From contig JAXHLQ010000001.1 in the NCBI GenBank assembly GCA_034522175.1, positions 4,529,685 to 4,593,684 of the forward strand: a DNA stretch of 64,000 bases, in the 5' to 3' direction. Both the position numbers and the translations under genes were made by a program. The stretch comes from Deltaproteobacteria bacterium. Its GTDB lineage: Bacteria; Desulfobacterota; DSM-4660; Desulfatiglandales; Desulfatiglandaceae. This document shows positions 2,165-16,160 of the stretch, one piece after another (position 1 is the stretch's first letter; each line of letters begins with the position of its first letter). Below the pieces are notes generated by a model that was not told the DNA's origin, did not search any database, and was given only the letters and a program-made list of their open reading frames with translations.

Positions 2165-3469
2165 TCAAATTGCGGATTTCAGCTGCTTCAGTTTTTCCGG
2201 GCGGTTTTTAAGGAACATGCAATGATTAAGGGTTGTTTTTCCGTCGATGGTATCTTCGGCAAAGGTCTGGCAATCGGGGCACCCGCACATGCCGCACTCC
2301 TTTCTGGGAAGGGCCTCCATAATTTGTTTCACCTTGTTCAACCGCTCGATGTTTTCTGTAATGGACCGGCCGGAGTCGGCGGGAATGAGCTGGGATCTGT
2401 CTTTTTCCGTGAAGAACCATCCCTTCTTGTATAAATCAATGACGTATTTATATTTGATGCGTTTTTCCGAGCCAAACATGCGGATAAACTTCTGGAGGAG
2501 ATGTTTGGCCCGGTACTTGTCCTCAACCGTAAAGGGCCCGCCGATACACCCTTCACGACAGACCCGGCATTCGACATAGTCCAGATCATCGAGGATTCCC
2601 ATCTCGATCTTTTCAAGATACAAAATGGTTTCATCGAGACCCGAGACGGCAAGACAGTTTCTGTCCAATCCCGCCACTTCACCCCCCGACACGCCCCATC
2701 CCAGTCCGATCCCACTGGAGTGGTGCAACACACGGTCGTCATCGATTTCCTTTAGATTTCTTTTAACCGCTTCATAAACGCGGTTAATTCCCACTGCCTT
2801 ATCCATCCCGGCATATTTCCGATTCACGGATTCCTTGACAAAATCGGTCATGGCCGGGCAGGGGGTAATGTTCAAGATTCGAACATCTTCAGGTTTATAC
2901 CCGTACTTGGTGGAGATTCGTTTCTTGCCCTCCCTGGAGACGATCTCACGCGGTGTGGCGAGCGGGGGGATGTGCTTTAGAAGCGTGGGAAACCGGCAGG
3001 CGATGAGGCTGACCACCACCGGGCATACCGGAGAGATGAGTGGAAAGTGAGAATCCCCTTTCTTGCGTTGTTCCCGGATGTACAACTCGATGGCAAAATT
3101 GAACAATTCAGTGGTGTACGATTGATCGTGCACATACCCGAATCCCATTTTCTTGAGGGCCAGCAGGATGTCGTTGGGCAGATAATCGGATCCGAACTGA
3201 GAATAGATCACCGTGGAGGGACTGATGACGAACCGATCGTCCCCGTTTAACTCATCTTCCTTAAACCCCGACAGGCTGATGGCATTTTTCGGGCAGACAC
3301 GGATGCATTCACCGCAGTTGATGCAAACCCCTTCTATTCTCGCTGCTTCCTTCCTGACACGGATCGCCTTGGTCGGGCATGCCTTCATGCAGAGGACGCA
3401 TCCAGTGCATTTATCCACATCCACCTGGACATGAGGTCTTCTTCTTTCGGCTTCAGATGAGCTGCTCAC
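2165..3469 (-). CDS. [FeFe]-hydrogenase large-subunit-like protein, putative sensory/non-catalytic type (2x[4Fe-4S] ferredoxin N-terminus plus an H-domain-like core and a C-terminal Cys cluster).
   Basis: Ferredoxin motifs CTGCVLCMKACP and CINCGECIRVCP. H-cluster-like motifs are degenerate: SPVCPVV (vs TSCCPxW), TPCPAMTDF (vs MPCxxKxxE) and VECRVCREGCIGGP. A C-terminal CGMCGCPDC cluster is present. Confidence 0.75.
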   Translation of the reverse strand: MSSSSEAERRRPHVQVDVDKCTGCVLCMKACPTKAIRVRKEAARIEGVCINCGECIRVCPKNAISLSGFKEDELNGDDRFVISPSTVIYSQFGSDYLPNDILLALKKMGFGYVHDQSYTTELFNFAIELYIREQRKKGDSHFPLISPVCPVVVSLIACRFPTLLKHIPPLATPREIVSREGKKRISTKYGYKPEDVRILNITPCPAMTDFVKESVNRKYAGMDKAVGINRVYEAVKRNLKEIDDDRVLHHSSGIGLGWGVSGGEVAGLDRNCLAVSGLDETILYLEKIEMGILDDLDYVECRVCREGCIGGPFTVEDKYRAKHLLQKFIRMFGSEKRIKYKYVIDLYKKGWFFTEKDRSQLIPADSGRSITENIERLNKVKQIMEALPRKECGMCGCPDCQTFAEDTIDGKTTLNHCMFLKNRPEKLKQLKSAI

Positions 3470-3896
3470 GCCCCGTCCTTGACGTTAAAGATGATTTTCA
3501 GACAGGTCCCGTTTCCCATTTTTGAATCGATGCTCAGTTCATCGGCATTTTTTTTGATATTCGGGAGGCCCATTCCGGCACCAAATCCCATCTCCTGGAA
3601 TTCTTTGGTGGCCGTGGAATAGCCCTCCTGAAGGGCGAGTTCGATGTCTTCAATACCTGGGCCGTCGTCCCGCATTTCAAGGCGGATATGCTTCGGATCG
3701 ACAATCAGTTCACAGGTGCCGTCACCGCCGTGCATGACAATATTCATTTCCGACTCATAGGCGCATATGGCGACCCGGCGGATGAGGTCAGGGGGAAACC
3801 GACGGCTTTGAGAAGTTCCTGCACCTCGATGGATACCTCGCCGGCCTTTACAAAATCCCTGGCTTTCACCTCAAAACGTTTGATAAGGTCGGTCAT
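3466..3896 (-). CDS. Anti-sigma-factor-type Ser/Thr kinase (RsbW-like GHKL ATPase), with a frameshift in the G5 run at 3791-3795.
   Basis: ORF 3466..3747 gives ...EMNIVMHGGDG...DDGPGIEDIELALQEGYST...GFGAGMGLPNIKKNADE. The upstream frame from the ATG (complement of 3894-3896) reads MTDLIKRFEVKARDFVKAGEVSIEVQELLKAVGFP. One extra base in the run restores ...GFPPDLIRRVAICAYESEMNIVMH. Confidence 0.8.
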
Positions 3897-3969
3897 CGCG
3901 ATGCCGGAGCGGAATGAGGCTTCTCATCCGTCGCTCGTCTATAAGGGTAGTATTCGGGGGAGTCTTTCG

Positions 3970-4326
3970 CTAAGCGGTCCTTCCTTCTACTCCCCTGAGG
4001 CCTTTGGCGAAAAGCCTCCCACAGGATGAAAACATGGTGAACGGCGTCGATAGCAGCGGCAGATGGTGTTTGACCGCCAGTTGAATCACCTCGGGTGCGG
4101 GCCGCTTCTTTCTGACGAAGACAATGGCCTTGACACCGGCAATAACAGAAGTCCGGATGGCCTGGGCGTTGCACAAACCCGTCAGCAATACCGTGTCCGT
4201 GTTTTGCCCGGTGAGCATGTCGCTCATGAGATCGCTCCCGGCGCCGGCCTCAATGGTGATGTCGAGTTGATCTTCTCCCGTCAGTACGTCTGCACGTAAA
4301 GTATCTTTAATATCGCTTAGTTTCAT
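3970..4326 (-). CDS. DRTGG domain protein.
   Basis: 118 aa: ...GSDLMSDMLTGQNTDTVLLTGLCNAQAIRTSVIAGVKAIVFVR... This is the typical small DRTGG ORF found in NuoEF-type operons. Confidence 0.8.
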   Translation of the reverse strand: MKLSDIKDTLRADVLTGEDQLDITIEAGAGSDLMSDMLTGQNTDTVLLTGLCNAQAIRTSVIAGVKAIVFVRKKRPAPEVIQLAVKHHLPLLSTPFTMFSSCGRLFAKGLRGVEGRTA

Positions 4327-4453
4327 AAATTGTCTTTTTTGGGACCATGGAAATGCCCCTTTTGTCGTAGGAGGCCTGGGCGCTGCCCTCCGGCCTGTAA
4401 GCCGCTCACACAGAGCGGGTATTATAAACTGAGAATTGCCGGGTATCTATTCC

Positions 4454-7400
4454 TTAAAGATCGCATCGAAGACAGCGACGTGCCTCGAGACACGCTGCCT
4501 TTTCATCAATGCCCAATTCAACTTCATCGAAGTTATCCACCCGATCCGCCGCTGGCAGTTCATTCATCTCGGGTCGAACCAGTTTTTCATCTTCTTCTGT
4601 GGCCTCGAGGCGCGGCAGGGTGAGATGCGGCTTGGGGTGCCAGTAACCGCCGTAGGGCCGGTCCCTGAGATAACAATCGATGGATACGGCCGCACGATGC
4701 CCGGCGCCGATGGCCTCTACCACGGTCGCCGGACCGGTAACCGCATCCCCGCCGGAGAAGAATCCGGGTACATTGGTCGCCAGGGTGCGCTCATCCACCT
4801 CAAAACTGTTCCAGCGGCTGATATTGAATTGGAGATCGTCATTCAAAAACGAGAGATCCGGAGATTGACTGATGGCCGGGATGATGACATCGGTCTCAAT
4901 AATGAATTCCGAACCTTCAACAGGGACAGGCCGTCGCCGCCCGCTGGCATCGGGTTTTCCCAGTTCGTTGAAAAGGCACTCCATACCCACGACCTTGCCG
5001 TTTTCACCGAGGATTCGAATGGGGGACGTCAACAGATCGATCTGGATCCCTTCCTCTTCCGCCGCATCGACCTCGGCCGGGTTGGCCGGCATCTGCTCGC
5101 GCTGGCGGCGATAGACGATGTGGACCTCTTCGGCCCCGAGGCGCAGGGACGTTCGTGCCGCGTCGATGGCTGAATTCCCGGCGCCGATGACACATACCTT
5201 TTTACCGGGCGCCTTCTTTTCTCCCAGGTTGACATTTCTGAGGAATTTGGTGGCGTCGATGAATCCCTCGAACTCATCTTCCCCGGGTATTCTGAGTTTC
5301 AGGCCCTTATGTGCGCCAATACCGAAGAAAAACGCCTTGTACCCTGATGCTTTCATTTCATCGATGCTGATGTCCCTTCCCACACGAACGCCCAGTCGAA
5401 TCTCCACGCCAAGCCGTTTGATGGCATTGATCTCGTCGTTGAGTACATCTCGCGGGAGCCGATATTCGGGGATGCCCACATGGAGCATTCCCCCGGCCAC
5501 GGGGAGTTCTTCAAATACGGTCACCGGATATCCCTTGAGGGTGAGATCGTGGGCCACGGTCAATCCCGCGGGACCGGCCCCGATGACGGCCACCTTGTCC
5601 TCCGGAAAAAGGGCCTTTGCAGGTTCGATATCCTTAAGGCATTCTCGATTTTTATCTGCTGCAAACCGCTTCAACGCACAGATGGAAATGGGTTTGTCCA
5701 CATCCCCCCGGGTGCATTGGGTTTCACAAGGGTGCGGGCAGATACGGCCCAGGCACATGGGGAGGGGGTTTTCCATCCGGATAATGTCCCATGCCTTTCT
5801 GAATTCACCCTGGGCGATAAGCGCCGTATAGGTGGATACATCCTGTCCCGTGGGACAGGTGGACTGGCACGGCGGCGCACTGAGCCGTTTGCAGGTTCCC
5901 GTGGGGCAGTGTTTATCGAAGATGTGGGCCTCGTATTCGTGGCGAAAATATCTCAGCGTGCTCAAAACCGGGTTGGGCGCGGTCTGACCCAAACCACAGA
6001 GCGATGCGGATTGAATGACCTTGCTCAGGGTTTCCAGCCGTTCGATATCATCGGGCCTTCCGTCTCCCTGGGTAATACGCTCCAGTATGTTCAAGAGCTG
6101 TTGGGTGCCTTCCCGACACGGTGTGCATTTGCCGCAGGACTCCTCTGCCGTAAAACCGAGGAAAAACTTGGCAAGGTCCACCATGCAGGTGGTCTCATCC
6201 ATGACCACCATTCCCCCAGAGCCCACGATAGCGCCGGTCTTGGCGATATTTTCATAATCCACCGGTGTTTCAAGTAGGCTTTCCGGAATACACCCCCCGG
6301 AAGGGCCGCCGAGTTGCACCGCCTTGAATCGCTTGTTGTCCGGGATGCCGCCGCCGATATCGTAAATAATGGATCTGAGCGGCGTTCCCATGGGCACTTC
6401 TATCAATCCGATGTTGCGTACCCGTCCGCTCAGGGCAAACACCTTGGTCCCGGTACTCTTCTCCGTCCCGAGACTACTGAACCATTCTGCCCCGCGATAG
6501 ATGATCTGGGGAACATTCGCAAGACTCTCTACGTTGTTGAGAACCGAAGGACGGTCCCACAGTCCCTTATGGGCAGGGAAGGGGGGCCTCGGCCTCGGCA
6601 TGCCCCGTTTGCCTTCAATGGACCGCATCAGGGCCGTCTCCTCACCGCATACGAAGGCGCCGGCGCCGAAATAGAGTTCGATGTCCATGTCAAACCCGGA
6701 GCCGAGAATATCCTCGCCCAAAAGCCCGTAGTCCTTGGCCTGCCCGATGGCGGTCTGCAGTCTTTGGATGGCCAGGGGATACTCCGCCCTTACATAGATA
6801 AATCCGTGGTGGGAGCCGATGGCTTTCCCACCGATGATCATCCCCTCCAGTACCGCATGGGGATCACTTTCCAGTATGGATCGATCCATGAATGCGCCTG
6901 GATCGCCTTCATCGGCATTGCACAACATGTATTTGGGACTCCCTTCGGAACCCGCGCAGAACTGCCATTTGAGGCCGGTGGGGAATCCTGCGCCGCCGCG
7001 CCCCCGCAGCCCGGATGCCTTCATCTCCTCAACGATCTGTTCCGGCGTCATCTCCAAAAGGGCCTTGGCCGTTCCCATGTACCCATCCCGGGCGATATAT
7101 TCGTCGATGCTGTCGGGATCGATCAGGCCTCTGTTCCTGAGGGCCACCAGGACCTGGCGGCTGAAGAACCCGATATCCTTGATAGCGGGTACCAGTTGCT
7201 CCCCCTCCGGGCTCTCGAAGAGGAATTTCTCGGCGATACGACCCTTGACAAGATATTCCTCAACAAAATAAGGGACGTCTTTTGTTGTGAGTTTTTGATA
7301 GAAGACCCCCTCGGGATAGGCGATCATCAATGGGCCGGCGGCGCAGAAGCCGTTACATCCGGTGGTGGCCACATAGACTTCGTCCTGGAGCTCCCGTTTG

Positions 7401-7501
7401 TTGATCTCCTCGACAAGGGCGTCTCTCACATCCAGTGATCCACTGGATACGCAACTGGTTCCTGCACAGATGAGGAGATGAACGCGGTATTTCTTTTCCA
7501 T
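4454..7501 (-). CDS. NuoF/HydB-like NADH-binding FMN flavoprotein fused to a C-terminal GltD/NfnB-like NADPH:FAD oxidoreductase domain (StnB-like architecture).
   Basis: 1015 aa. Contains an N-terminal thioredoxin-like 2Fe-2S domain, the NuoF motif GRGGAGFPTGLKW, the ESCGKCTPCREG cluster site, ferredoxin Cys motifs, then GltD-like VAVIGAGPAGL (FAD) and VCVIGAGNSAIDAART (NADPH) Rossmann motifs. Confidence 0.9.
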   Translation of the reverse strand: MEKKYRVHLLICAGTSCVSSGSLDVRDALVEEINKRELQDEVYVATTGCNGFCAAGPLMIAYPEGVFYQKLTTKDVPYFVEEYLVKGRIAEKFLFESPEGEQLVPAIKDIGFFSRQVLVALRNRGLIDPDSIDEYIARDGYMGTAKALLEMTPEQIVEEMKASGLRGRGGAGFPTGLKWQFCAGSEGSPKYMLCNADEGDPGAFMDRSILESDPHAVLEGMIIGGKAIGSHHGFIYVRAEYPLAIQRLQTAIGQAKDYGLLGEDILGSGFDMDIELYFGAGAFVCGEETALMRSIEGKRGMPRPRPPFPAHKGLWDRPSVLNNVESLANVPQIIYRGAEWFSSLGTEKSTGTKVFALSGRVRNIGLIEVPMGTPLRSIIYDIGGGIPDNKRFKAVQLGGPSGGCIPESLLETPVDYENIAKTGAIVGSGGMVVMDETTCMVDLAKFFLGFTAEESCGKCTPCREGTQQLLNILERITQGDGRPDDIERLETLSKVIQSASLCGLGQTAPNPVLSTLRYFRHEYEAHIFDKHCPTGTCKRLSAPPCQSTCPTGQDVSTYTALIAQGEFRKAWDIIRMENPLPMCLGRICPHPCETQCTRGDVDKPISICALKRFAADKNRECLKDIEPAKALFPEDKVAVIGAGPAGLTVAHDLTLKGYPVTVFEELPVAGGMLHVGIPEYRLPRDVLNDEINAIKRLGVEIRLGVRVGRDISIDEMKASGYKAFFFGIGAHKGLKLRIPGEDEFEGFIDATKFLRNVNLGEKKAPGKKVCVIGAGNSAIDAARTSLRLGAEEVHIVYRRQREQMPANPAEVDAAEEEGIQIDLLTSPIRILGENGKVVGMECLFNELGKPDASGRRRPVPVEGSEFIIETDVIIPAISQSPDLSFLNDDLQFNISRWNSFEVDERTLATNVPGFFSGGDAVTGPATVVEAIGAGHRAAVSIDCYLRDRPYGGYWHPKPHLTLPRLEATEEDEKLVRPEMNELPAADRVDNFDEVELGIDEKAACLEARRCLRCDL

Positions 7502-7547
7502 GAATCGTGCCTCTTTTACCTACAGATGGACCTTCGTGTTATTCTGC

Positions 7548-7931
7548 TTAGTAAGTGGTTTCGCTTCCGACAGAAAGCGCGTATTTGGATACGGGATGCC
7601 CGTTCATCACATGTTCGTCAAATATTTTTGTGGCTTTCTCCTCATCCAGCAATACATATTTGACCGGTGCGGAATCTTTCACCTCAACGGTCATCATCGG
7701 TTCGTGATTACAGAGTCCCGCGCAGCCGGAAGAAGTCAGGATGATGTCGGCGGCCCCTGTTTTTTGTATCTTTTCGAGTAGAAAGTTCATAATCTTTCGG
7801 GCGCCCGCAGCGATGCCACAGGTGCCGAGATGAACGGTGATCTTGACGCGGTATTCACCGGCGCGCAGGTTCACGGTTCCCTTTGCCGCTTCCTTGATGC
7901 GTTTAAGGTCTTCCACACGAAGCTTGGCCAT
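7548..7931 (-). CDS. Thioredoxin-like [2Fe-2S] ferredoxin (HydD/NuoE-fold small subunit).
   Basis: 127 aa: ...HLGTCGIAAGARK...SSGCAGLCNHEPMMTV..., the characteristic Cys pattern. Confidence 0.8.
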   Translation of the reverse strand: MAKLRVEDLKRIKEAAKGTVNLRAGEYRVKITVHLGTCGIAAGARKIMNFLLEKIQKTGAADIILTSSGCAGLCNHEPMMTVEVKDSAPVKYVLLDEEKATKIFDEHVMNGHPVSKYALSVGSETTY

Positions 7932-7965
7932 TTTTTTTCCTCCATGAAGCCCTGTTGGCGTACGG

Positions 7966-8499
7966 CTATGATTCCGGGTTATTCACCATTTCTTGAATCA
8001 GTTGCAATATTTTTGGGTCTGAAATGGTGCTGAAACCTTCGATTTCATCCTTGATGGAGCGGGTATCCAGGGATGTCCGCTTTCCATCCCGCTTGTATTC
8101 ATACACAAAGTCCACATCCGGATTCCCGGCAATGAGCGACACCAGCGTGGCACCCATGTCGCCCATGGGTTTCCGGTCAATATGTCCGGCCTGAAATGTC
8201 GCCGTTAGCTCGGTTCCAAGGCCCGCCTCGGAGGCAACAGAGAGTCGGCCGCCTGCCTCCCGGGCGGCCTGCTCAAAGAGGGGGATGCCGAGTCCCACCC
8301 GGCGGGTGGTTCGGGAGGTCACAAATGGATCCGTTACCCCCTTGAGTGTTTGACTGTCCATACCGTGCCCATCGTCTTTGATGGTAATTTGCAACAGATC
8401 GCTTTTTGTATCTTCGATGATGCGAATCTCCACGCGCGTGGCGCCGGCGGTTGTGGCGTTTTCAACAATGTCCAGTATATGAAGCGATAGATCCTCCAT
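7966..8499 (-). CDS. GHKL-superfamily ATP-binding protein (histidine-kinase-like ATPase domain only).
   Basis: 177 aa: HILDIVENATTAGATRVEIRI...DDGHGMD...RRVGLGIPLFEQAAREAGG...GLGTELT (N, G1 and G2 boxes). Confidence 0.8.
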   Translation of the reverse strand: MEDLSLHILDIVENATTAGATRVEIRIIEDTKSDLLQITIKDDGHGMDSQTLKGVTDPFVTSRTTRRVGLGIPLFEQAAREAGGRLSVASEAGLGTELTATFQAGHIDRKPMGDMGATLVSLIAGNPDVDFVYEYKRDGKRTSLDTRSIKDEIEGFSTISDPKILQLIQEMVNNPES

Positions 8500-8512
8500 G
8501 AGCGTTGATGGC

Positions 8513-9308
8513 CTAATTGAGGATTTTTCGTCCGTCCATGCCTTTCAAGGCCAGCTTCAACTCCGCCAACCGGGGCGCGGCAACCCGGACACGCGTCGGG
8601 CTTGTGCCCAATTCATCCAGGTCATGGGCATCAGAGGCGGATATGAACGGGACCTTCGCATATTCAGAGTAATCCGCCTGCGCCTGGGACAGCGTGAGTC
8701 TTCGCGAAATCTCCAGGGCGTCAAAATTCAGGTCATCCGGAATGAATCCCAGTTGGCTGATCACACTGAAACTCCGTCGATCGATGTGTGCCGCAACAGC
8801 CAGACCACCGTGTTCGTGAATGCCGTTGACCACTTCATGAGCGTCAGGACGGTTCCACCGATCAAAAGCCGCGTATTGATGGCCTCGGCTTCGTCATATT
8901 CGTTCGCCACCACCTGCAGTCCAAAGAGATCCGGGTCGTTTTCGCCCGAAAAAAGATGACGGTAGACAATCGCCTGCATGGACAGGGCTTCTTCAACATC
9001 TTCAAACAGGCCGATAATGTGTGCTTCCTCGGCGGTGGTGATTTCCATGCCTGGGATCACGACCAGCTCGGTCCCCGCTGCCGAAGCCATCACAGCAGCC
9101 GCATTTCGGCGCTGTTGTGATCCGTAATGGCGATCATCGCCAGTTTACGCTTTAGGGCTTCCCGGACAATCTTTACCGGCGTCATATCCAGGGTGGCACA
9201 AGGGGAAAGGCAGGAGTGAACATGGGTATCGATGGTGATCCACTTCAACGGCGCTTCTGTTCCAACTGCCACCCGCACCCCTTGTTGAAAATCGTCTGAG
9301 AAACTCAA
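8513..9308 (-). CDS. PHP (polymerase/histidinol phosphatase) domain metal-dependent phosphoesterase, interrupted by two frameshifts (about 8847-8848 and TTT 9104-9106).
   Basis: The three ORF fragments 9090..9308 (IDTHVHSCLSPC...ITDHNSAE), 8761..9093 (AAVMASAAGTELVVIPGMEITTAEEAHIIGLF...) and 8513..8833 (VVNGIHEHGGLAVAAHIDRR...SASDAHDLDELG) join into one PHP protein after single-base corrections. Confidence 0.8.
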
Positions 9309-9646
9309 CTACCGGCCACACCCATTTCAAAGAGCTTGCCGACCAACTCAAACGTAGGCATTTTACTGACCAGTATGGGGATCTGCTCTTCAACGGCCTT
9401 TTTGAGGGTCATGGGATCAGGTTCTCTGCTGTTGACCAGGATAATGCCCGAAAGCGATTTCATGACTGCGATGGCGACGATGTTCTGATGCGCCTGCAGC
9501 GTGACCCATAAATCGCCCTCCGCGGCATTTCCCATGACATCACTCAACAAATCGCTGGCATAACCGCGGGTGACCTCCCTGTCCAACTGCGTTTCTCCGC
9601 TTTTGATTTCAAGGTCGAGTTTTTCGATGATCTTCTGAAGCTTCAT
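9305..9646 (-). CDS. DRTGG domain protein (second copy).
   Basis: 113 aa: ...YASDLLSDVMGNAAEGDLWVTLQAHQNIVAIAVMKSLSGIILVN... It is a paralogue of 3970..4326. Confidence 0.8.
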   Translation of the reverse strand: MKLQKIIEKLDLEIKSGETQLDREVTRGYASDLLSDVMGNAAEGDLWVTLQAHQNIVAIAVMKSLSGIILVNSREPDPMTLKKAVEEQIPILVSKMPTFELVGKLFEMGVAGS

Positions 9647-9687
9647 TTTTTTGGTTTCCTCAAGGGGTACGGTGTTTTCCGCGGCTT

Positions 9688-12600
9688 TTATATCGTGCCC
9701 CGGTAGCTCTCCACAATGTCGACAATTTGTTTCGGGTCCACCTCTCCATGGGTGGTGTCATCCACCACCATGACCGGGGCGAGTCCGCAGGCCCCGATAC
9801 ATCGGACCACTTCCAGGGAATATTCCCTATCTTCGGTGGTTTCGCCGATTCCCACGTGGAGGTGCTGCTCAAGCTTTTCCAACAGTCTTCCCGAGCCCTT
9901 GACAAAACAGGCCGTACCCAAACATACCCGGATGGTGTGTTGTCCCCTGGGGACCATGGTAAAAAACGAATAAAAGGTGACCACACCGAATACATAGGAT
10001 GGTGCAACACCGAGTCCCAGCGCAATATAGTTCTGGACGGGAACCGGCAGGAAGCCCAGGATCCCCTGGACCTGCTGCAGCACCGGAATCAGCCCACCGC
10101 GTTTGGTTTTATAGGTGGAGAGTATCTCGTCAATTTTCTCTTTCGCGTCTGTCTTTTCTTCCTCCTGAAGGAGCGCGATAAAGGCCTCTTTGACTTCTTC
10201 CGGATTGCTGGGCGGGACCTGTGTGCCGATGCCTCCGCTCTTGGGAAGGGATTCCAGGAGTCCGCCGCAATGTTCCAGCAGCGTGCGATGGTGGTAATTG
10301 AAGGATGTCCAGCCGGGACGTCTGAGGGGGGATCGTGCATCCCTGGGTCCTGGAACCCCCAGTTTCTGCGGGTCGGTCAAAGGCCGCTGCACCCCCTGTT
10401 TCTCCATGCGTTCATAGGTCATCCCCTCGAGTTGAGGGATCAGGTCGATGATTTCCTTTTCCCAAATGTCACGGGGGGTGGATTCCGGCCATGAAAGGCC
10501 CAGTCGATTGGCCAACTGGGTGAAAATCCATGTTTCCGGTTGGGCATCTCCGGGAGCAGGCACCGCATATCGAACGCGACTCACGCGTCTTTCGCAATTG
10601 GTGTACGTGCCTTCTTCTTCAGCCCAGGCGGCGGCGGGAAGCACCACATCTGCGTAGGGGATGGTTTCATTGTTCAGGATATCCTGCACCACGAGAAATT
10701 CGACTGCCTCCAGGGCAGCGGTCACGTTGGGCATGACCGGTGTGGTGAGTGCCAGATTTTCGCCCACGCAATAAAGGACGCGGATGGGCGTGCCTGCCTC
10801 CTGCTTTCCATTGCTCAGGTTTTGAATCATCTCGGAAAACCGCAAGCCGGGTTTGCTGTTCAGCGAAGTTCCCCAGGCCGTTTCAAAGGCGTTACGCGAC
10901 GCGTCATCCTCCACCCGGGCGAATCCGGGAAGAAAGTTCGGCAGCAATCCCATGTCACAGGCCCCTTGGGAATTGTTCAGATCGCCGAGGTAGTTCACCC
11001 CCCCGTAAGGGACGCCGAGATTTCCGAGGACATCCTGTAGGGCCACAAAGGTCCTGGCAAAGGAAGCAACCTTGGACCCATACACCAGCATGGCCGGTTC
11101 TTCCCTGTCGAGAATGTCCACGGCGGACAGGATATCATCGGCTGTAAGCCCCGTGATCTGTGTCACCTTAGCCATGTCATAGCTTTGCGTGCTCTTTTCG
11201 ATATCCTCAGCACATGTTCGTCCTCTTTGGATGAGTTGATGCATGATACCGTTGATGAGAACGGACTCGGTGCCCTCTTTCAAAAGAAGATGGGTATTGG
11301 CAAAGGTGCCGATCTTCGTGGGTATGGAGTTTACAACAATGAGTTGCGCACCGGCTTCGGATGCCCGCTTGACGAATGTGCCGGCGACCGGGTTTTCTTC
11401 GGTGATGTCGCTTCCGATGAGCAAAATGCGCTTCGCCTTTTCCAGTTCAGAGAGCGGGTTATTCAGCCCGCCTGCGGCGAAGGGGGAGGCCAGGTTGTTG
11501 GTGCCGATGCCCACCCTGAAGAGCTTCTGCATGGTATAAAGGGCTTCGTTTGTGGATTTGGCCGAACAGATGCCTGCAACGGAATCAGGGCCTTCTTTTT
11601 CCACGGTTTCTTTGATCTTTTTGGCGATAAGATCCAGGGCCTCTTCCCAGGAGGCACCCCTCAACTCGCCGTCCTTTCGAATCATGGGTCGGGTGAGACG
11701 TTCCGGACTCTGAACAAAATCGTATCCGAAGCGGCCCTTTACGCAAAGCCGCCCATGGTTGGGTTGGACCCCTTCGACCGCCGTGACCTTCATGATGGTG
11801 TCATTCTTGATGTGAAGATCCAGCTGGCACCCTACGCCGCAATAGTAACAGGTGGTCCGGACGTGCCGGGCCTCCCACGGTCTGATCTTGTAGCGGCTCT
11901 TTTTCTCCACCAGGGCACCGACCGGGCAGGCCTGGATGCACTGACCACAGAATACGCATTCCGACCGATCCAGGGATCCATCCCCCATGGCGATAATCCT
12001 GGCTTCGGCACCTCTGAAGCCGTGGGAAATGGCGTTATTGACCTGGATGCTGTTGCAGGCCTCTACACACCGGCCGCAGAGAATGCAGCGTGAGGCATCC
12101 CTTACAATGAGGGGACTTGCCGTCTCCATGGGATATTCGGCTGGGGCCCGGACCAGTCCACCGGTATCCACCTGATAACGGTAGGCATAGGCCTGCAGTT
12201 TACAGGCGCTGTGGGCCGGGCAGAGCTCCGTGGTTTGGTCATATTGTTCCACCTGTCGCTGAAAGTCGGTCCAGTCGTCTGAGGCCTTTTTGGCCACTGC
12301 GCAGTTGTGATTGCCGGATTGGAGCAACAGGGCCAGAACCGTTTGACGGGCTTCTTTGACCGCAGGCGAGTTGGTATGAACCACCATCTTATCGCCGGCC
12401 GGGGCGGAACAGGAGGGGGCAAGGGCGCGGGCCCCTTCGATCTCCACGAGACAGACCCGGCAGGCACCGGTCGGTGTGGTGCCTTCAAGGTGACACAGGG
12501 TGGGAATGAAAATCCCGTTGCGTCTGGCCACTTCGAGGATCGTCTCTCCAGGGGTAAACGCCAATTGGCGACCGTCTATGGTAATCTTCTGTTCGGACAT
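9688..12600 (-). CDS. FdhA/NuoG-like molybdopterin-oxidoreductase-family iron-sulfur protein that lacks the formate dehydrogenase catalytic residues, fused at its C-terminus to a NuoE-like [2Fe-2S] domain.
   Basis: The start is preferred at ATG 12598-12600 (MSEQKITIDG...), with GGAGAG upstream. The N-terminus has a 2Fe-2S fold and 2x[4Fe-4S] motifs (CILCGRCVEAC, CVFCGQCIQACP), followed by the MopB 4Fe-4S site CYYCGVGC...GRLCVKGRFG. Where FdhF has NNVDCCARVUHGPS, this protein reads IGTNNLASPFAAGGLNN. The C-terminal ~150 aa are NuoE-like (...RGGLIPVLQQVQ...CLGTACFVKG...CIGACGLAPVMVV). Confidence 0.85.
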   Translation of the reverse strand: MSEQKITIDGRQLAFTPGETILEVARRNGIFIPTLCHLEGTTPTGACRVCLVEIEGARALAPSCSAPAGDKMVVHTNSPAVKEARQTVLALLLQSGNHNCAVAKKASDDWTDFQRQVEQYDQTTELCPAHSACKLQAYAYRYQVDTGGLVRAPAEYPMETASPLIVRDASRCILCGRCVEACNSIQVNNAISHGFRGAEARIIAMGDGSLDRSECVFCGQCIQACPVGALVEKKSRYKIRPWEARHVRTTCYYCGVGCQLDLHIKNDTIMKVTAVEGVQPNHGRLCVKGRFGYDFVQSPERLTRPMIRKDGELRGASWEEALDLIAKKIKETVEKEGPDSVAGICSAKSTNEALYTMQKLFRVGIGTNNLASPFAAGGLNNPLSELEKAKRILLIGSDITEENPVAGTFVKRASEAGAQLIVVNSIPTKIGTFANTHLLLKEGTESVLINGIMHQLIQRGRTCAEDIEKSTQSYDMAKVTQITGLTADDILSAVDILDREEPAMLVYGSKVASFARTFVALQDVLGNLGVPYGGVNYLGDLNNSQGACDMGLLPNFLPGFARVEDDASRNAFETAWGTSLNSKPGLRFSEMIQNLSNGKQEAGTPIRVLYCVGENLALTTPVMPNVTAALEAVEFLVVQDILNNETIPYADVVLPAAAWAEEEGTYTNCERRVSRVRYAVPAPGDAQPETWIFTQLANRLGLSWPESTPRDIWEKEIIDLIPQLEGMTYERMEKQGVQRPLTDPQKLGVPGPRDARSPLRRPGWTSFNYHHRTLLEHCGGLLESLPKSGGIGTQVPPSNPEEVKEAFIALLQEEEKTDAKEKIDEILSTYKTKRGGLIPVLQQVQGILGFLPVPVQNYIALGLGVAPSYVFGVVTFYSFFTMVPRGQHTIRVCLGTACFVKGSGRLLEKLEQHLHVGIGETTEDREYSLEVVRCIGACGLAPVMVVDDTTHGEVDPKQIVDIVESYRGTI

Positions 12601-12777
12601 GTTCACTCTCCGACGGATGTTTTTCGCGCAGAGACGCAGCGGCGCAGAGAAAGAATAAATTCCTGCGGGTGATTTCTGTTGGCGCAAAATGGCATATGTG
12701 CTTATCGCCTTTCGTAATTCAGATTACTGGGTTGAACCTCAGGACATCTGTTCGCATGCCGTGAGGAGGCTAAACGT

Positions 12778-14861
12778 CTACTGACCCGTTTTCCATGTCT
12801 GCGATTTCGGATTTTTGTAACAAATCAGACCGCAGTTGAGACATCTGCGGGCCTCGTTTCTCGCAGCAGCTTCATCGAGCCCCGGCCAGGGTTTGGGGAA
12901 AATCCAGGCACTCTCACTATCCCCCTCCACATCGAGTGAAGGCGGTCGCTCTCTTTCCAGTGTCTCGACGTGGTGGACTTCTGATACATCCAGCACGGAT
13001 GCGGCTTCACACACCAATTCATCCATCGATCCAACCTGTCCGTCCGTAAGGTAGGTATGGATGGCACGGCAGAGCCGACGTCCTGAGAGGATCGACTTGA
13101 CCACCGCCGAAGAATCGCTGAGCCTGCCGGGTTCCGGTGCAGTGAACACGCCATTCCGGCCCGTTTTTGGAAACGTGTGGAAGGTTTCAACGGTTCGCCA
13201 CTGTGAGGCGGCCGCGTCCGTGGTGTCATCCGAGTCATCGGGGACAAACACCAACTCCGGGAGCCGGGCGCCTGGGAAAACAACACTGTCCACATGACGT
13301 GTGGTTGTTTCCACGAAATCCGCGCGCCGGGAATCTCGCGTTTCCAGTCCGATATCCGTCAGGCGATCATCGGTTCCTTTGAGGAAGGTCACATGGGTGG
13401 AAGCGTGAATCTCAATCCCCTCGGCAGCCAATGCGCGGGTATCTTTGAATGCCGCAGGGAGTTCGGCGGGATCAAGGTTTGAAATGATGTGTACCGTTTT
13501 TGCCCCCTGCTTTTTCAGCGTGCGTGCCAGGTCGAGTCCTTCAGCCATGTTGTGGACGATGGCGACCTCTTTGCCGATGTTGACCGTTTCGTTCGCAGCG
13601 AGGGCGGTCCAGAGATCCAGCAATATGAAAAGACCCTGAAAGGGGAGGTCAAACTGATTGACTTCAGGACGGAGGATCTTTTGGCTGTCGATCCCGCCTG
13701 TTGTCAGCACCACCGCATCATACCCTTCGTGCAGAAGCCCCCCCGGCGTGAAATCCCGACCCATGACCCTATTGGTTTTTGCCTCCACACCCATTTTCAG
13801 AATCCCATCAATTTCATGATCCAGGATGTCCCGGGGAAGCCGGTCTTCGGCAATGACATACCGTAAAATGCCTCCCAGTTCTGGTTTAGCCTCGAAGAGG
13901 GTAGGTCGGTAACCGAGCCGGGCCAGATAATAGCCGGTGGTTAACCCTTCGACACCGCCGCCGATAACAGCGATTTTGCGATGGTTGTCGTCGGCCTTGT
14001 AGGGATTGATATGGGCGTCGTTGGCCATCTCATATTCGGCGACAAATCGTTTGAGGGAATTGATGGCCACGGGTTCATCCACCATGTTTCGTCTGCAGGC
14101 CATTTCGCAGGGAGCCGGACAGATATGCCCGCAGATGAGCGGAAGGGCGCATTTCTCCTTTATGGTGAGGAGGGCCCCCGGGTAATCCCCGTTGTGGATC
14201 TGGCTGATATAGCGGGGGATGTTGATGCCGGTGGGGCAGGTCCGCTGCAAGGGGCCGTGCATTCGTCGGTCTGATATTCGTCGATGATTCGAAGTGAGTT
14301 GGAACTGAGGGTAATGATGTGTTTCGGGCAGATTCGCTCGCAGGTGCCGCAGCCTGTGCATCGCTCTGTGTTGACGATGGGCAGGTTGTCGGGCCCGATG
14401 GTGAGCGCATCAAAGGGGCACGCGCGAACACAGGTGCCGAGTCCCAGACATCCGATGGGGCATTCTTTGGACCCTCCTCCCAGCAGCATGGCGGCGCGAC
14501 AATCATGAATGCCCTGATAGATGTATTTCAGGTCTGCTTCCTGGGTTCCATAGCGGCATCCCGGGAATGCAAATTCGGGCTCCCTGAGCTCCAATTCCAC
14601 GCCCATGATGGCCGCAATTTCAACAGCGATCTCAGCTCCGCCTGCGACGCAGGAGGACGGTGAGGATTGACCGGCTACAATAGCGGCGGCGTTGGAACTG
14701 CATCCGGGTAATCCGCATCCGCCGCAGTTCGCCCCGGGGAGCGCATCGTCCACCGCTTCGATCTTGGGATCCACATACACGTAGAACACCTTCGAAGCCA
14801 GTGCCAGGCAAATGCCGATGGCAACACCCAATCCCCCCATTACCAGAAACCCACCTAACAT
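12778..14861 (-). CDS. rnfB: RnfB (Rnf complex subunit B) fused to a GltD/NfnB-like FAD flavoprotein domain, interrupted by one frameshift near 14245-14250.
   Basis: ORF 14160..14861 has an N-terminal TM helix, the CGGCGLPGC motif and 2x[4Fe-4S] motifs (CLGLGTCVRACP, CTGCGTCERICP). ORF 12778..14361 continues in another frame as ...CPTGINIPRYISQIHNGDY...ICPAPCEMACRR...KIAVIGGGVEGL. One added base gives ...DECTAPCQRTCPTGINIP. Confidence 0.8.
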
Positions 14862-14955
14862 GTCGTTCCTCCAACGTCAGTCGACTTGACCCGCTTCATC
14901 TGTCCGACTCGATTCGCTATTCACTGTTCAATCGCCAATCGTCAATCGCCAATCC

Positions 14956-15530
14956 CTACACCATCCCTTTAAAAGCGAAAAAAGCGAGGGAGATCATGCC
15001 TGCGGTCACGAGCCCGATGGACGTATCCTGCAAGGGTTTTGGAACCCTGGCGAGGAGGAGACGTTCTCGAATCCCCGCAAAGAGAATCAGGGCCAGTCCG
15101 AAGCCCACCGCATAGCTGAGAGAGGCCACCAGTGCCTGAACAAAACCGTATTCTTCGTTGATATTGATGAGGCATACCCCCATGACCGCACAATTGGTGG
15201 TGATGAGGGCAGGAATATTCCGAGCCCCGCATAGAGCGTCGGAATACTCTTTCTCAAAAACATCTCCACCAGTTGGACCAGGGATGCGATGACCAGGATG
15301 AAGGCCAGTGTCCTCAAATATTCAAGCTCAAACGGTCGGAGAAGAAATGTGTTGACGATCCAGGTGATGGCGCCTGCCATGACCAGCACGAATACGACCG
15401 CCATGGCCATTCCGGTGGCCGTCTCCATCCGTTTGGAAACCCCGAGAAAGGGACAGTTCCCGAGGTATTGCATCAGCAGGATGTTGTTGACAAAGATGCA
15501 GCTGACGATCAGTAAGATGTAGTCACCCAT
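14956..15530 (-). CDS. rnfA: Rnf complex subunit A, with a frameshift in the G3 run at 15207-15209.
   Basis: ORF 15087..15530 reads MGDYILLIVSCIFVNNILLMQYLGNCPFLGVSK...LYAGLGIFLP. ORF 14956..15183 reads ...CAVMGVCLININEEYGFVQALVASLSYAVGFGLALILFAGIRERL. One added base restores GIFLPLITTNCAVMG. Confidence 0.85.
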
Positions 15531-15548
15531 TCTGCTGCCTCCGATCGA

Positions 15549-16145
15549 TTATCTCATTTTCCCCAGCATATTCATTACACACAGCATCAACCCCAGACAG
15601 ACGAACGCCCCCGGGGCCTGCACCATGAAACCGAATGGCTCAAAGCTCGGCCCAAACACCGGAATATCGTAGAAGGTCCCATTACCGAGGACCTCACGAA
15701 CGATGGAGAGGGCGGTCAGTGACAGGGTGAAGCCCACGCCGATGCCGAGTCCGTCGGCAAAGGAATGAACAACCCCGTTCTTGGCGGCGAAGGCCTCTGC
15801 CCGGCCCAATACGATGCAGTTGACCACAATGAGGGGGATAAAGATGCCCAGTTTCAGAAAGAGGGATAGGCGAATGCCTGCATCACCAATTCGACTACGG
15901 TGACAAAGGTGGCGATCACCACGATGTAGCAGGCGATTCCGAACCCGCTTGGGGATGACGTTTCTGAGCAGCGATATCAGGACATTGGAACACACCAGCA
16001 CGAATGTGGTCGCGATGCCCATGCCGATCCCGTTTTCCACCCCCTTGGTCACGGCCAGCGTCGGACACAGGCCCAGAACCAGGCGAAAAGGTGGAATCTT
16101 GGCCCAAAGCCCTTTGGTGAATTCTTGAACTGCCGTCTTTGCCAT
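15549..16145 (-). CDS. rnfE: Rnf complex subunit E. The ORF stays open, but about 25-30 internal codons (about 15862-15937) are out of frame because of two compensating indels.
   Basis: The in-frame text ...IPKRVRNRLLHRGDRHLCHRSRIGDAGIRLSLFLKLGIFIPLIVVNCIVLGRAEAFA is unlike RnfE. The +1 frame of the same DNA reads IACYIVVIATFVTVVELVMQAFAYP, which matches the RsxE/RnfE consensus ([24 protein letters not shown]). Confidence 0.85.
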   Translation of the reverse strand: MAKTAVQEFTKGLWAKIPPFRLVLGLCPTLAVTKGVENGIGMGIATTFVLVCSNVLISLLRNVIPKRVRNRLLHRGDRHLCHRSRIGDAGIRLSLFLKLGIFIPLIVVNCIVLGRAEAFAAKNGVVHSFADGLGIGVGFTLSLTALSIVREVLGNGTFYDIPVFGPSFEPFGFMVQAPGAFVCLGLMLCVMNMLGKMR

Positions 16146-16160
16146 TTCCGCACTCCCTCA

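What the first reader, a model, noticed from the sequence alone, without database searches (positions are those of the whole stretch)
4454..12600. Candidate Stn/Nfn-like NADH-NADPH-ferredoxin flavoprotein module built on an FDH-derived rather than hydrogenase-derived scaffold
The operon encodes three core components:
- A NuoF-type subunit with an intact NADH/FMN motif (GRGGAGFPTGLKW), fused to a GltD/NfnB-type domain with both Rossmann motifs intact (VIGAGPAGL and VIGAGNSAID).
- A thioredoxin-like 2Fe-2S protein.
- A large FeS subunit fused to NuoE.

The NuoF::GltD fusion is the defining architecture of StnB in the Sporomusa-type Nfn transhydrogenase (StnABC). In that complex the third subunit is a HydA homologue without an H-cluster. 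Here the corresponding large subunit is instead a formate-dehydrogenase-alpha homologue stripped of its catalytic residues (see the separate finding).

I see no H2- or formate-converting active site in the operon. The only obvious substrate sites are NAD(H), NADP(H) and ferredoxin-type clusters. I therefore infer an electron-bifurcating or confurcating transhydrogenase of a subunit composition that I do not recognise as described.
Basis: inference. Interest (0 to 1): 0.75.

Follow-up and report, generated by a model that had tools for sequence, protein, structure and literature searches.

The report
Rearranged NADH/NADPH flavoprotein module beside Rnf
The operon encodes an uncharacterised but widespread iron-sulfur flavoprotein module with one NADH site and one NADPH site and no hydrogen or formate site; it has nearly all the parts of the known Stn/NfnABC transhydrogenase (only the ferredoxin-docking domain is missing) wired in a different order, and it sits directly behind an unusual Rnf membrane complex that it probably serves.

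Summary
The sequence observation holds. On the minus strand, 4454-7501 encodes a 1015-aa Trx-like[2Fe-2S]::NuoF::GltD protein with intact FMN/NADH, FAD and NADPH motifs. 7548-7931 encodes a 127-aa Trx-like FeS protein. 9688-12600 encodes a 970-aa NuoG/FdhA-like::NuoE protein whose Sec/Cys-His loop is deleted, whose Arg333 equivalent is Gly, and which has no pterin cap domain.

The comparison with Stn was misremembered. In StnABC the GltD domain sits inside StnC, the NuoG-like subunit. That subunit already carries an inactive FdhF-like domain.

Here the fusion equals StnB residues 1-527 plus StnC residues 101-567. GltD therefore replaces the C-terminal 2x[4Fe-4S] domain where ferredoxin docks in Bfu enzymes.

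That operon has a cytochrome c3 gene and an RnfC without an NADH motif. The same synteny recurs in Desulfobacterota and Eisenbacteria, and in Kiritimatiellae with an ordinary HydB.

Elsewhere NuoF::GltD pairs with a true Sec-FdhA or a true HydA.

Verdict: a new, widespread variant of the Bfu/Stn kind, most likely an NAD(H)/NADP(H) head wired to large RnfB. The mechanism is inferred only.

The parts
4454..7501 (-). 1015-aa fusion: N-terminal Trx-like [2Fe-2S] domain, NuoF/HydB core (FMN/NADH site, N3-type [4Fe-4S], His/Cys/Cys hinge), then a GltD/NfnB-type domain (2x[4Fe-4S], FAD, NADPH)
   Evidence: Pfam. PDB hits show residues 1-540 matching HydB/StnB (E about 1e-230 to 1e-199) and residues 542-1014 matching NfnA/StnC residues 101-567. 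Motif conservation in 109 homologues.
7548..7931 (-). 127-aa thioredoxin-like FeS protein, a paralogue of the N-terminal domain of the NuoF fusion. It has only 3 Cys plus a candidate His.
   Evidence: Reciprocal tblastn cross-hits with the NuoF N-terminus. Weak NCBIfam 2Fe-2S ferredoxin hit. Conserved directly upstream of NuoF in L001, L085, L086, L087 and L082.
7966..8499 (-). 177-aa HATPase_c protein (regulatory set typical of HydABC-type operons)
   Evidence: Pfam. Synteny.
8513..9270 (-). PHP-domain gene, broken by two 1-nt deletions in this assembly (about 9106 and about 8838). The upstream end is approximate.
   Evidence: tblastn frames. Intact 256-aa PHP gene in L087. Gap map.
9305..9646 (-). 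113-aa DRTGG-domain protein
   Evidence: Pfam.
9688..12600 (-). 970-aa fusion: NuoG-type FeS N-terminus, catalytically dead FdhA-like MopB domain without cap domain, and a C-terminal NuoE [2Fe-2S] domain
   Evidence: Pfam. PDB hits. Active-site alignment. A 100% identical NCBI protein, P0121.
12778..14861 (-). Large RnfB (about 694 aa if a 1-nt deletion near 14253 is repaired): membrane helix, PF04060 FeS, 2x[4Fe-4S], then a GltD-like domain with an FAD motif but a degenerate NAD(P)H motif
   Evidence: It is one ORF in L001, L081, L085, L086 and L087.
14962..18992 (-). rnfC-D-G-E-A of a Tol2-type Rnf. rnfC is split into three frames and rnfA into two in this assembly. The intact homologue of this RnfC in L086 lacks the FMN/NADH glycine motif; the window's own split copy was only read by eye.
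   Evidence: PMC5109826.
19082..19552 (-). 156-aa membrane-anchored tetrahaem cytochrome c3 (TmcA-like) heading the rnf cluster
   Evidence: The same gene heads the cluster in L085, L086 and D. multivorans rnf2.
3970..4326 (-). 118-aa DRTGG-domain protein
   Evidence: Pfam.
3466..3897 (-). SpoIIAB-like HATPase_c_2 protein (143 aa in L087)
2165..3469 (-). 434-aa HydA-like protein with 2x[4Fe-4S] and a C-terminal PF04060 cluster. H-cluster motifs are degenerate (Lys358 to Met, Cys299 to Val), so it is probably a sensor or FeS protein, not a hydrogenase.
   Evidence: Conserved in L087 but not found in L001 or L086.

Best explanation
What it is: a domain-shuffled relative of the Bfu-type transhydrogenase StnABC/NfnABC. 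It has three redox ports.

- Port 1 (shown). An FMN/NADH site in a HydB-type NuoF core. This core keeps the N-terminal [2Fe-2S] domain, the N3-type cluster, the His/Cys/Cys hinge and a NuoE [2Fe-2S] partner.
- Port 2 (shown). A GltD-type FAD/NADPH site with two [4Fe-4S] clusters. It is attached exactly where HydB and StnB carry the ferredoxin-docking 2x[4Fe-4S] domain.
- Port 3 (inferred). An FeS wire through the dead FdhA-like NuoG subunit. It has no substrate site of its own. It most likely passes electrons to or from the co-encoded large RnfB, whose GltD-like domain would sit on the dead FDH domain as FdhB/SfrB sits on FdhA/SfrA.

Inferred function: the module is the NAD(H)/NADP(H) head of a Tol2-type Rnf, whose own RnfC has lost its NADH site. 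It would link the NADH and NADPH pools to the low- or mid-potential FeS and cytochrome c3 chain of that membrane complex.

If the Bfu port geometry is kept, NADP(H) takes the place of ferredoxin on the low-potential branch, and the RnfB wire is the mid-potential branch.
For: - Domain and motif anatomy.
- The junction is mapped to StnB 1-527 plus StnC 101-567.
- The FDH active site and cap domain are lost.
- Large RnfB - NuoG::NuoE - (regulators) - 127-aa protein - NuoF is syntenic in the window, L001, L087/L088 (Desulfobacterota) and L086 (Eisenbacteria). It recurs in L085 (Kiritimatiellae) with an ordinary HydB instead of NuoF::GltD, and in L081 as a bare three-gene cluster.
- RnfC of these clusters has lost the GGAxFP FMN/NADH motif and gives no Complex1_51K hit.
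- The literature already notes this Rnf type as functionally unexplained (PMC5109826).
- The GltD-like part of large RnfB keeps the FAD motif but not the NAD(P)H motif in 118 homologues.
- JGI names large-RnfB homologues 'formate dehydrogenase (NADP+) beta subunit'.
- StnC is itself SfrB-like plus SfrA-like (PMC7483475).
Against: - There is no biochemical or structural evidence; physical contact with large RnfB or Rnf is inferred from gene order only.
- D. multivorans has a Tol2-type rnf2 with hppA about 1.9 kb downstream, so no adjacent NuoG::NuoE. Rnf of this type can therefore exist without the module next to it.
- L084 has a GltD-like gene without the RnfB part. L002 and L005 have NuoF::GltD with no large RnfB.
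- NuoF::GltD also works with real FdhA or HydA partners, so the fusion as such is not Rnf-specific.
- In this assembly rnfC, rnfA and large rnfB carry frameshifts.
Confidence: 0.45

Rival explanations
1. A free-standing soluble Stn/Nfn-like transhydrogenase. Reduced ferredoxin plus NADH would reduce NADP+ (or the reverse). Soluble ferredoxin would dock somewhere on the NuoG-like subunit or on the 127-aa protein.
For: - It has the same cofactor inventory as StnABC except for the B3/B4 domain.
- L081 keeps the three genes without rnfCDGEA nearby.
- The Chloroflexi loci lack large RnfB.
Against: - The only experimentally located ferredoxin site in this family, the BfuB C-terminal Fd-like domain (PMC12018979), is missing.
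- NADPH would sit on the branch that is low-potential in Stn, while ferredoxin would have to use the mid-potential branch.
- Even L081 retains the membrane-anchored large RnfB.
Confidence: 0.25
2. A non-bifurcating SfrAB-like NAD(P)H:acceptor oxidoreductase. NADH (through FMN) and NADPH (through FAD and GltD clusters) both feed the N3-type cluster and the FeS wire. This gives a dual-specificity dehydrogenase, or an uncoupled NADPH-to-NAD+ transhydrogenase.
For: - The junction NADH_4Fe-4S + Fer4_20 + Pyr_redox_2 also occurs in many proteins of about 580-740 aa that lack the FMN domain.
- SfrB and StnC are related (PMC7483475).
- SfrAB is described as an NADPH oxidoreductase (PMC9888536, PMC3543383).
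Against: - The NuoF core keeps the extras of bifurcating HydB: the N-terminal [2Fe-2S] domain and the hinge.
- It scores best against bifurcating HydB chains.
- An extra Trx-like protein is conserved next to it.
Confidence: 0.15
3. An electron-transfer module for a catalytic formate dehydrogenase or hydrogenase encoded elsewhere in the genome, which docks on the dead FDH subunit.
For: NuoF::GltD sits next to a Sec-FdhA plus FocA (L082), a full FdhA (L002) and a true HydA (L004) in other lineages.
Against: - No such gene lies in the 64-kb window.
- The A-subunit position is already filled by the dead FdhA.
- The local HydA-like protein lacks Lys358 and Cys299 and falls far below all hydrogenase model cut-offs.
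Confidence: 0.08
4. A decaying, non-functional locus in this organism.
For: Frameshifts in rnfC, rnfA, large rnfB and PHP. NCBI annotates the truncated 494-aa piece (P0245).
Against: - The two large genes are intact.
- All mapped lesions are single-base deletions.
- The essential pheT gene and a peptidase gene in the same window are split too, which points to assembly indel errors.
- The whole cluster is intact in the nearest relatives.
Confidence: 0.04

Closest known systems
StnABC / NfnABC (Nfn-Bfu) electron-bifurcating transhydrogenase (Sporomusa ovata, Caldicellulosiruptor, Thermococcus sibiricus)
   Same: - NuoE-like [2Fe-2S] unit.
- HydB-type NuoF with an N-terminal Trx-like domain and a hinge.
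- GltD/NfnB-like FAD/NADPH domain. The best PDB hits for the GltD part are NfnA and StnC.
- NuoG-like subunit with an inactive FDH-like domain.
- No H2 or formate site.
   Different: - GltD is fused to the C-terminus of NuoF instead of being inserted after the [2Fe-2S] domain of the NuoG-like subunit.
- The ferredoxin-docking B3/B4 domain is absent.
- NuoE is fused to the C-terminus of the NuoG-like subunit.
- An extra 127-aa Trx-like protein is present.
- The NuoF core scores higher against hydrogenase HydB (773-782 bits) than against StnB or NfnB (657-669 bits).
- The cluster is linked to rnf.
SfrAB of Geobacter sulfurreducens and the NADP-dependent FDH FdhAB type
   Same: - A GltD-like NADPH subunit pairs with an FdhA/NuoG-like FeS subunit.
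- The gene order is beta then alpha, as for large RnfB then NuoG::NuoE.
- The NADH_4Fe-4S + Fer4_20 + Pyr_redox_2 junction is shared with many proteins of about 650 aa. My assignment of those proteins to SfrB/FdhB rests on memory and on JGI names.
   Different: - Here a full FMN/NADH NuoF and a NuoE are present.
- The upstream GltD-like unit has lost its NAD(P)H motif and is fused to a membrane-anchored RnfB.
Tol2-type Rnf (Desulfobacula toluolica Tol2, Desulfococcus multivorans Rnf2, Desulfobacterium autotrophicum)
   Same: - Cytochrome c3 gene.
- RnfC of about 430-450 aa without a detectable NADH domain.
- RnfB of about 690 aa with a C-terminal flavoprotein-like domain (PMC5109826).
   Different: - The published description does not mention a NuoG::NuoE or NuoF(::GltD) module.
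- In D. multivorans none is adjacent.
- The 'NAD-binding site' ascribed to large RnfB is not supported by motif conservation.
HydABC-type bifurcating hydrogenases and Fdh-Bfu / FdsABG formate dehydrogenases
   Same: - The NuoE/NuoF/NuoG scaffold.
- The same regulatory gene set: DRTGG, PHP, HATPase and a HydS-like protein.
- The dead subunit is closest to FdsA-type FDH alpha subunits.
   Different: There is no H-cluster and no pterin active site, and NADPH/FAD stands in place of the ferredoxin domain.

Membership tests
StnABC / NfnABC (Nfn-Bfu) | NuoE-like [2Fe-2S] subunit (StnA/BfuC) | tested here: met
   A full 2Fe-2S_thioredx domain at residues 824-967, E 2e-46, but fused to the NuoG-like protein. 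PDB hits to HydC and NfnC.
StnABC / NfnABC (Nfn-Bfu) | HydB-type BfuB with FMN/NADH site, N-terminal Trx-like domain and His/Cys hinge | tested here: met
   The hinge H/C/C is invariant in 109 homologues.
StnABC / NfnABC (Nfn-Bfu) | BfuB C-terminal ferredoxin-like domain with two [4Fe-4S] clusters (B3/B4), the ferredoxin site | tested here: not met
   The alignment to StnB and HydB stops at the hinge (residue about 540). The next residues align to StnC 101 onwards.
StnABC / NfnABC (Nfn-Bfu) | GltD-like NADPH/FAD domain inserted in the NuoG-like subunit (StnC/NfnA) | tested here: not met
   GltD is at the C-terminus of NuoF. True Stn loci (L045, L055, L017) show StnB followed by 2Fe2S-GltD-NuoG in one gene. 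The NuoG-like protein here has only a 27-aa insert at that point.
StnABC / NfnABC (Nfn-Bfu) | NuoG-like subunit with a catalytically inactive FDH-like domain | tested here: met
   PMC10482914 for Stn.
StnABC / NfnABC (Nfn-Bfu) | Coupled NADPH : NAD+ + ferredoxin oxidoreductase activity | not testable with these tools
   Needs the purified enzyme.
Bfu family core as defined by Schut et al. 2022 | Invariant BfuBC core with five clusters in BfuB (B1-B5) and one in BfuC | tested here: not met
   B1, the N-terminal cluster, the hinge and C1 are present. B3/B4 are absent. The published census used the ferredoxin-type domain in its query architecture (PMC9304861, methods), so it probably did not sample these proteins. 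That last point is my inference.
Catalytic Mo/W formate dehydrogenase alpha subunit | Sec/Cys-His active-site loop, the catalytic Arg, and the Molydop_binding cap domain | tested here: not met
   The loop is deleted, Arg333 is Gly, and PF01568 is absent. The Fdh-alpha model scores 424 bits against a cut-off of 666.
[FeFe]-hydrogenase (for the 434-aa HydA-like gene at 2165-3469) | H-cluster motifs L1-L3 including the proton-relay Cys and the CN-binding Lys | tested here: not met
   Four cluster Cys are kept, but TSCCP is SPVCP and PCxxK is PCPAM. The best hydrogenase model scores 81 bits against a cut-off of 450.
Tol2-type Rnf | RnfB of about 700 aa with a C-terminal flavoprotein-like domain | tested here: met
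   About 694 aa after repair of one deletion. It is intact in L001, L081 and L085-L087.
Tol2-type Rnf | RnfC without an NADH/FMN-binding domain or SLBB domain | tested here: met
   In L086 RnfC, GMGGATFPT is replaced by ELGAWTWAT, and there is no Complex1_51K or SLBB hit. The window copy is split by frameshifts and was read by eye only.
NfnAB (NfnSL) transhydrogenase | NfnA/NfnS subunit (FAD plus [2Fe-2S], ferredoxin-NADP-reductase type) paired with NfnB | tested here: not met
   No such gene is in the cluster. The GltD part matches T. maritima NfnB less well than Nfn-Bfu NfnA (326 against 377-390 bits).

The most novel reading that the evidence does not exclude
The module and the Tol2-type Rnf form one membrane-bound machine. 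In it, the Bfu flavin/FeS bifurcation site uses NADP(H), not ferredoxin, as its low-potential partner. Electrons at roughly -330 mV, coming from the cytochrome c3 / Rnf / large-RnfB wire, would be split between NAD+ and NADP+, or the reverse. The reaction could be coupled to ion translocation.

More generally, BfuB::GltD would define a class of 'NAD+/NADP+-bifurcating' enzymes. The same class would include the hydrogenase and formate dehydrogenase versions seen in L004, L002 and L082.
Probability: 0.2. Interest if true: 0.85.

Novelty: new variant of a known kind. Interest (0 to 1): 0.6.

Why it matters
- **An unexplained Rnf type.** Sulfate reducers and related anaerobes carry a second Rnf type whose RnfC cannot bind NADH and whose RnfB is twice the normal size. 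Its function has been open since it was noticed in Desulfobacula and Desulfococcus. A conserved adjacent module that supplies an NADH site and an NADPH site gives a concrete, testable answer to what that Rnf talks to.
- **A natural experiment on the Bfu mechanism.** Swapping the ferredoxin-docking domain of a HydB-type subunit for an NADPH flavoprotein tests the proposed low-potential branch (C1 to B3/B4 to ferredoxin). If the enzyme still couples, that branch can end in NADP+. If it does not, the swap marks how bifurcation is lost.
- **An annotation gap.** The fusion proteins are annotated simply as 'NuoF' or 'molybdopterin oxidoreductase' in hundreds of metagenome genomes. Metabolic reconstructions therefore currently miss an NADPH-linked redox node.

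Tried and rejected
1. Rejected after reading both Stn papers and mapping the junction.
2. A real FDH. Rejected by the active-site alignment and the missing cap domain.
3. The downstream HydA-like gene as a catalytic head. Rejected on motifs and model scores.
4. A real NADPH site in the GltD-like domain of large RnfB, as domain annotation suggests. Not supported by conservation in 118 homologues.
5. Obligatory linkage of the Tol2-type Rnf with this module. Contradicted by D. multivorans, where hppA lies 1.9 kb downstream of rnfB2.
6. Pseudogenisation of rnf. Judged unlikely, because pheT and a peptidase gene are split too and the relatives are intact.
7. Lookup of the source contig by the exact protein P0121. 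Nothing was on record.
8. Literature searches for a described NuoF::GltD or RnfB-GltD system. They found nothing beyond the Tol2-type Rnf note.
9. Structure prediction was not run. The tool returns no coordinates and takes no complexes, so it could not measure cluster distances between subunits.
10. The single genome-collection scan returned mostly plain HydB and Stn loci, because the patterns came from conserved NuoF and GltD stretches. No cultured carrier of the full cluster was identified.
Full report
**Observation**

The region is a minus-strand operon.

Gene 4454-7501 encodes 1015 aa. Pfam finds these domains:
- a short thioredoxin-like [2Fe-2S] domain (4-83)
- the NuoF FMN domain (161-331)
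- SLBB
- the NuoF [4Fe-4S] domain (442-526)
- the two-cluster domain of the GltD/DPD type (537-620)
- a pyridine-nucleotide-disulfide oxidoreductase domain (636-934)

In 109 full-length homologues the following are invariant or nearly so:
- the FMN/NADH loop
- both Rossmann motifs
- the YRR motif typical of NADPH binders
- the GGD flavin motif
- the cluster cysteines

Gene 7548-7931 (127 aa) has no Pfam hit. It is a paralogue of the N-terminal domain of the big NuoF protein and weakly matches a 2Fe-2S ferredoxin model.

Gene 9688-12600 (970 aa, 100% identical to the NCBI protein P0121) has the following:
- the NuoG-type N-terminus
- a MopB [4Fe-4S] domain
- a Molybdopterin domain
- no cap (Molydop_binding) domain
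- a complete NuoE domain at the C-terminus

Against E. coli FdhH, a 15-residue deletion removes the Sec140-His141 loop, and Arg333 is Gly. The sequence-level observation is therefore confirmed.

**What the fusion is made of**

- *NuoF core.* Residues 1-540 match bifurcating HydB chains best: Acetomicrobium NiFe-HydB 782 bits and Acetobacterium HydB 773 bits. StnB and NfnB score 657-669 bits.
- *GltD part.* Residues 542-1014 match the GltD part of NfnA and StnC (340-390 bits) better than Thermotoga NfnB (326 bits).
- *Junction.* A query spanning the junction aligns to StnB through residue 527. That stretch includes the HIxDKxCPxxxCK hinge, which binds zinc in Stn. The query then continues directly with StnC residue 101.
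- *What is missing.* The last ~57 residues of StnB/HydB are absent. They form the ferredoxin-like domain with clusters B3/B4.
- *Dead subunit.* It scores higher against real NAD-dependent FDH alpha subunits (382-398 bits) than against StnC or NfnA (224-234 bits).

**Comparison with the literature**

- StnA is NuoE-like, StnB is a HydB/NuoF homologue, and StnC is a fusion of a GltD-like domain and a NuoG-like domain.
- StnC was annotated as formate dehydrogenase and showed no formate activity. Its parts resemble SfrB and SfrA of Geobacter (PMC7483475).
- The cryo-EM paper describes the C-terminal part of StnC as a catalytically inactive FdhF-like domain (PMC10482914).
- In the archaeal NfnABC structure, ferredoxin binds between the NfnC C-terminal domain and the Fd-like domain of NfnB, which carries B3/B4 (PMC12018979).

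The real differences are the position of GltD, the loss of the ferredoxin domain, and the NuoG::NuoE fusion.

**Surroundings**

Immediately upstream lies a gene that is one ORF of 685-697 aa in relatives. In the window it is split by a 1-nt deletion near 14253. It has:
- an RnfB membrane helix
- the PF04060 cluster
- two [4Fe-4S] motifs
- a GltD-like domain

In 118 homologues the first (FAD) glycine motif is invariant. The second Rossmann motif is degenerate (first Gly in 15 of 118), and the YRR and GGD motifs are absent.

Further upstream are rnfA, E, G, D and C and a membrane-anchored TmcA-like tetrahaem cytochrome c3. In the intact Eisenbacteria homologue, RnfC has ELGAWTWAT where Clostridium RnfC has GMGGATFPT, and it gives no Complex1_51K or SLBB hit.

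This matches the "Tol2-type" Rnf noted in Desulfobacula toluolica, Desulfococcus multivorans and Desulfobacterium autotrophicum. That type has a large RnfB and an RnfC without an NADH domain, and its function is open (PMC5109826).

Regulatory genes lie between and after the two big genes: DRTGG, PHP, HATPase and a SpoIIAB-like HATPase. There is also a 434-aa HydA-like protein.
- It keeps four cluster cysteines but has Val for the proton-relay Cys and Met for the CN-binding Lys.
- It lies far below every hydrogenase model cut-off.
- It is probably a sensor-type FeS protein.

No catalytic FDH or hydrogenase is in the rest of the window, which holds housekeeping genes.

**Distribution and synteny**

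Both fusions are common in metagenome genomes. They occur in Desulfobacterota, Eisenbacteria, KSB1, Marinimicrobia, Chloroflexi, Planctomycetota and Kiritimatiellae.

| Locus (lineage) | Arrangement |
|---|---|
| L087/L088 (closest relatives), L001 (Desulfobacteraceae), L086 (Eisenbacteria) | Full order: rnf genes (with the cytochrome c3 gene visible in L086) - large RnfB - NuoG::NuoE - regulators - 127-aa protein - NuoF::GltD |
| L085 (Kiritimatiellae) | The same cluster, but with an ordinary 596-aa HydB that carries the ferredoxin domain |
| L081 (complete Desulfobacterales genome) | Only large RnfB - NuoG::NuoE - NuoF::GltD |
| L084 | A GltD-like gene without the RnfB part |
| L082 | NuoF::GltD next to a genuine Sec-FdhA and FocA |
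| L002 | NuoF::GltD next to a full FdhA with cap domain, plus MetF |
| L004 | NuoF::GltD next to a true HydA |

A search with the 260 residues around the junction found it in full-length fusions. It also found it in many proteins of 580-740 aa with NADH_4Fe-4S + Fer4_20 + Pyr_redox_2 but no FMN domain. I take these to be the SfrB/FdhB type. That assignment rests on memory and on JGI names, and was not tested.

D. multivorans rnf2 has no adjacent NuoG::NuoE.

**How it most likely works**

Shown by sequence:
- an NADH/FMN site
- an NADPH/FAD site
- about a dozen FeS sites
- no substrate site on the dead FDH subunit

Inferred:
- The dead subunit is a wire. The only conserved protein that could sit at its far end is large RnfB. 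Its GltD-like domain would bind the FDH-like domain as the beta subunit binds alpha in FdhAB and SfrAB.
- Because the accompanying RnfC has lost its own NADH site, the module is a plausible NAD(P)H head for this Rnf.
- If the Bfu geometry is conserved, the GltD clusters take the place of B3/B4. NADP(H), physiologically about 100 mV more negative than NAD(H), would then be the low-potential partner and the RnfB wire the mid-potential one.
- The Kiritimatiellae version, with a normal ferredoxin domain on the same scaffold, fits the idea that this branch is exchangeable.

I give the "NAD(P)H head wired to large RnfB" reading 0.45. The stronger bifurcation claim gets about 0.2.

**Rivals**

- A free soluble Stn-like ferredoxin-dependent transhydrogenase (0.25). 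It is weakened by the missing ferredoxin domain and the swapped port.
- A non-bifurcating SfrAB-like dual NAD(P)H dehydrogenase (0.15).
- A module for a catalytic FDH or hydrogenase encoded elsewhere (0.08).
- A decaying locus (0.04).

**Frameshifts**

Relative to intact relatives, the window has single-base deletions in rnfA, large rnfB and PHP (twice), and rnfC is in three frames. NCBI's annotation of the source genome, a 5.23-Mb contig, carries the same break (P0245). The essential pheT gene (30412-31920 and 31917-32825) and a prolidase gene are also split. I therefore read these as assembly indel errors, not biology.

**Novelty**

I found no description of NuoF::GltD, of NuoG::NuoE, or of their link to the large-RnfB Rnf in the searchable literature. 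The Bfu census built its set from an architecture that includes the ferredoxin-type domain, and it does not discuss Rnf.

The parts and the family are known; the wiring and the partner are not. This makes it a new variant of a known kind, of moderate to high interest for anaerobe bioenergetics.

Noticed in passing
window 8838, 9106, 14253, 15207, 17705-18992; also 30412-32825 and 374-1595: Many genes are split by single-base deletions relative to intact relatives: PHP (twice), large rnfB, rnfA, rnfC, the essential pheT, and a prolidase-like gene. The two largest genes of the operon are unbroken. The deposited annotation carries the same breaks (P0245). This looks like long-read indel error in a 5.23-Mb single-contig genome.
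   Followed up: partly
window 9688-12600, protein residues about 101-128: The His-ligated [4Fe-4S] motif of the NuoG-like N-terminus (HxC ... CxxxxxC) is interrupted by a 27-residue insert. StnC carries its whole GltD domain at this same point. The insert could be a scar or a hot spot for domain insertion.
   Followed up: partly
L082/L083 (Desulfomonilia) 9095-18866; L004 (Armatimonadia) 6637-12002; L002 (Dehalococcoidales) 6780-14602: The NuoF::GltD fusion also occurs next to a TGA-encoded Sec-FdhA with a FocA transporter, next to a genuine [FeFe]-hydrogenase HydA, and next to a full FdhA followed by MetF/MetV-like genes. These would be formate- or H2-linked enzymes with both an NADH and an NADPH site and no ferredoxin domain.
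   Followed up: partly
L085 (Kiritimatiellae) 2615-18142: The same cytochrome c - rnfCDGEA - large RnfB - NuoG::NuoE - regulators - 127-aa cluster occurs here, but it ends in an ordinary 596-aa HydB with the ferredoxin domain instead of NuoF::GltD. The NADPH domain and the ferredoxin domain thus appear interchangeable on one scaffold.
   Followed up: no
window 1698-2144 (+): An RseC/MucC-family gene (PF04246, E 5e-31) lies next to the cluster on the opposite strand, as it does in L087. From memory, RseC is linked to the Rsx (Rnf-type) SoxR-reducing system in E. coli, so it may belong functionally to the rnf locus.
   Followed up: no
window 2165-3469 (-): A HydA-like 434-aa protein has two ferredoxin clusters and a C-terminal PF04060 four-Cys motif. 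It keeps the four H-cluster cysteines but lacks the Lys and the proton-relay Cys. It sits with DRTGG and SpoIIAB-like genes and is probably a redox sensor rather than an enzyme.
   Followed up: partly
window 7548-7931 (-): The 127-aa Trx-like protein has only three cysteines at the expected [2Fe-2S] positions. A His lies four residues before the first Cys (VHLGTCG), which suggests mixed His/Cys ligation.
   Followed up: no
L038 (Pirellulaceae) 9263-13123: A single 1286-codon open frame appears to fuse NuoE, NuoF and GltD. It lies directly after rnfD/E/A-like genes and is followed by a short 210-aa NuoG-like FeS protein.
   Followed up: no
L006 (Gemmatimonadales) 4058-11099: A 1110-aa NuoF::GltD is followed by an 1138-aa protein with a NuoG-like N-terminus and by an MvhD/FlpD-like gene. 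This hints at a heterodisulfide-reductase-type partner.
   Followed up: no
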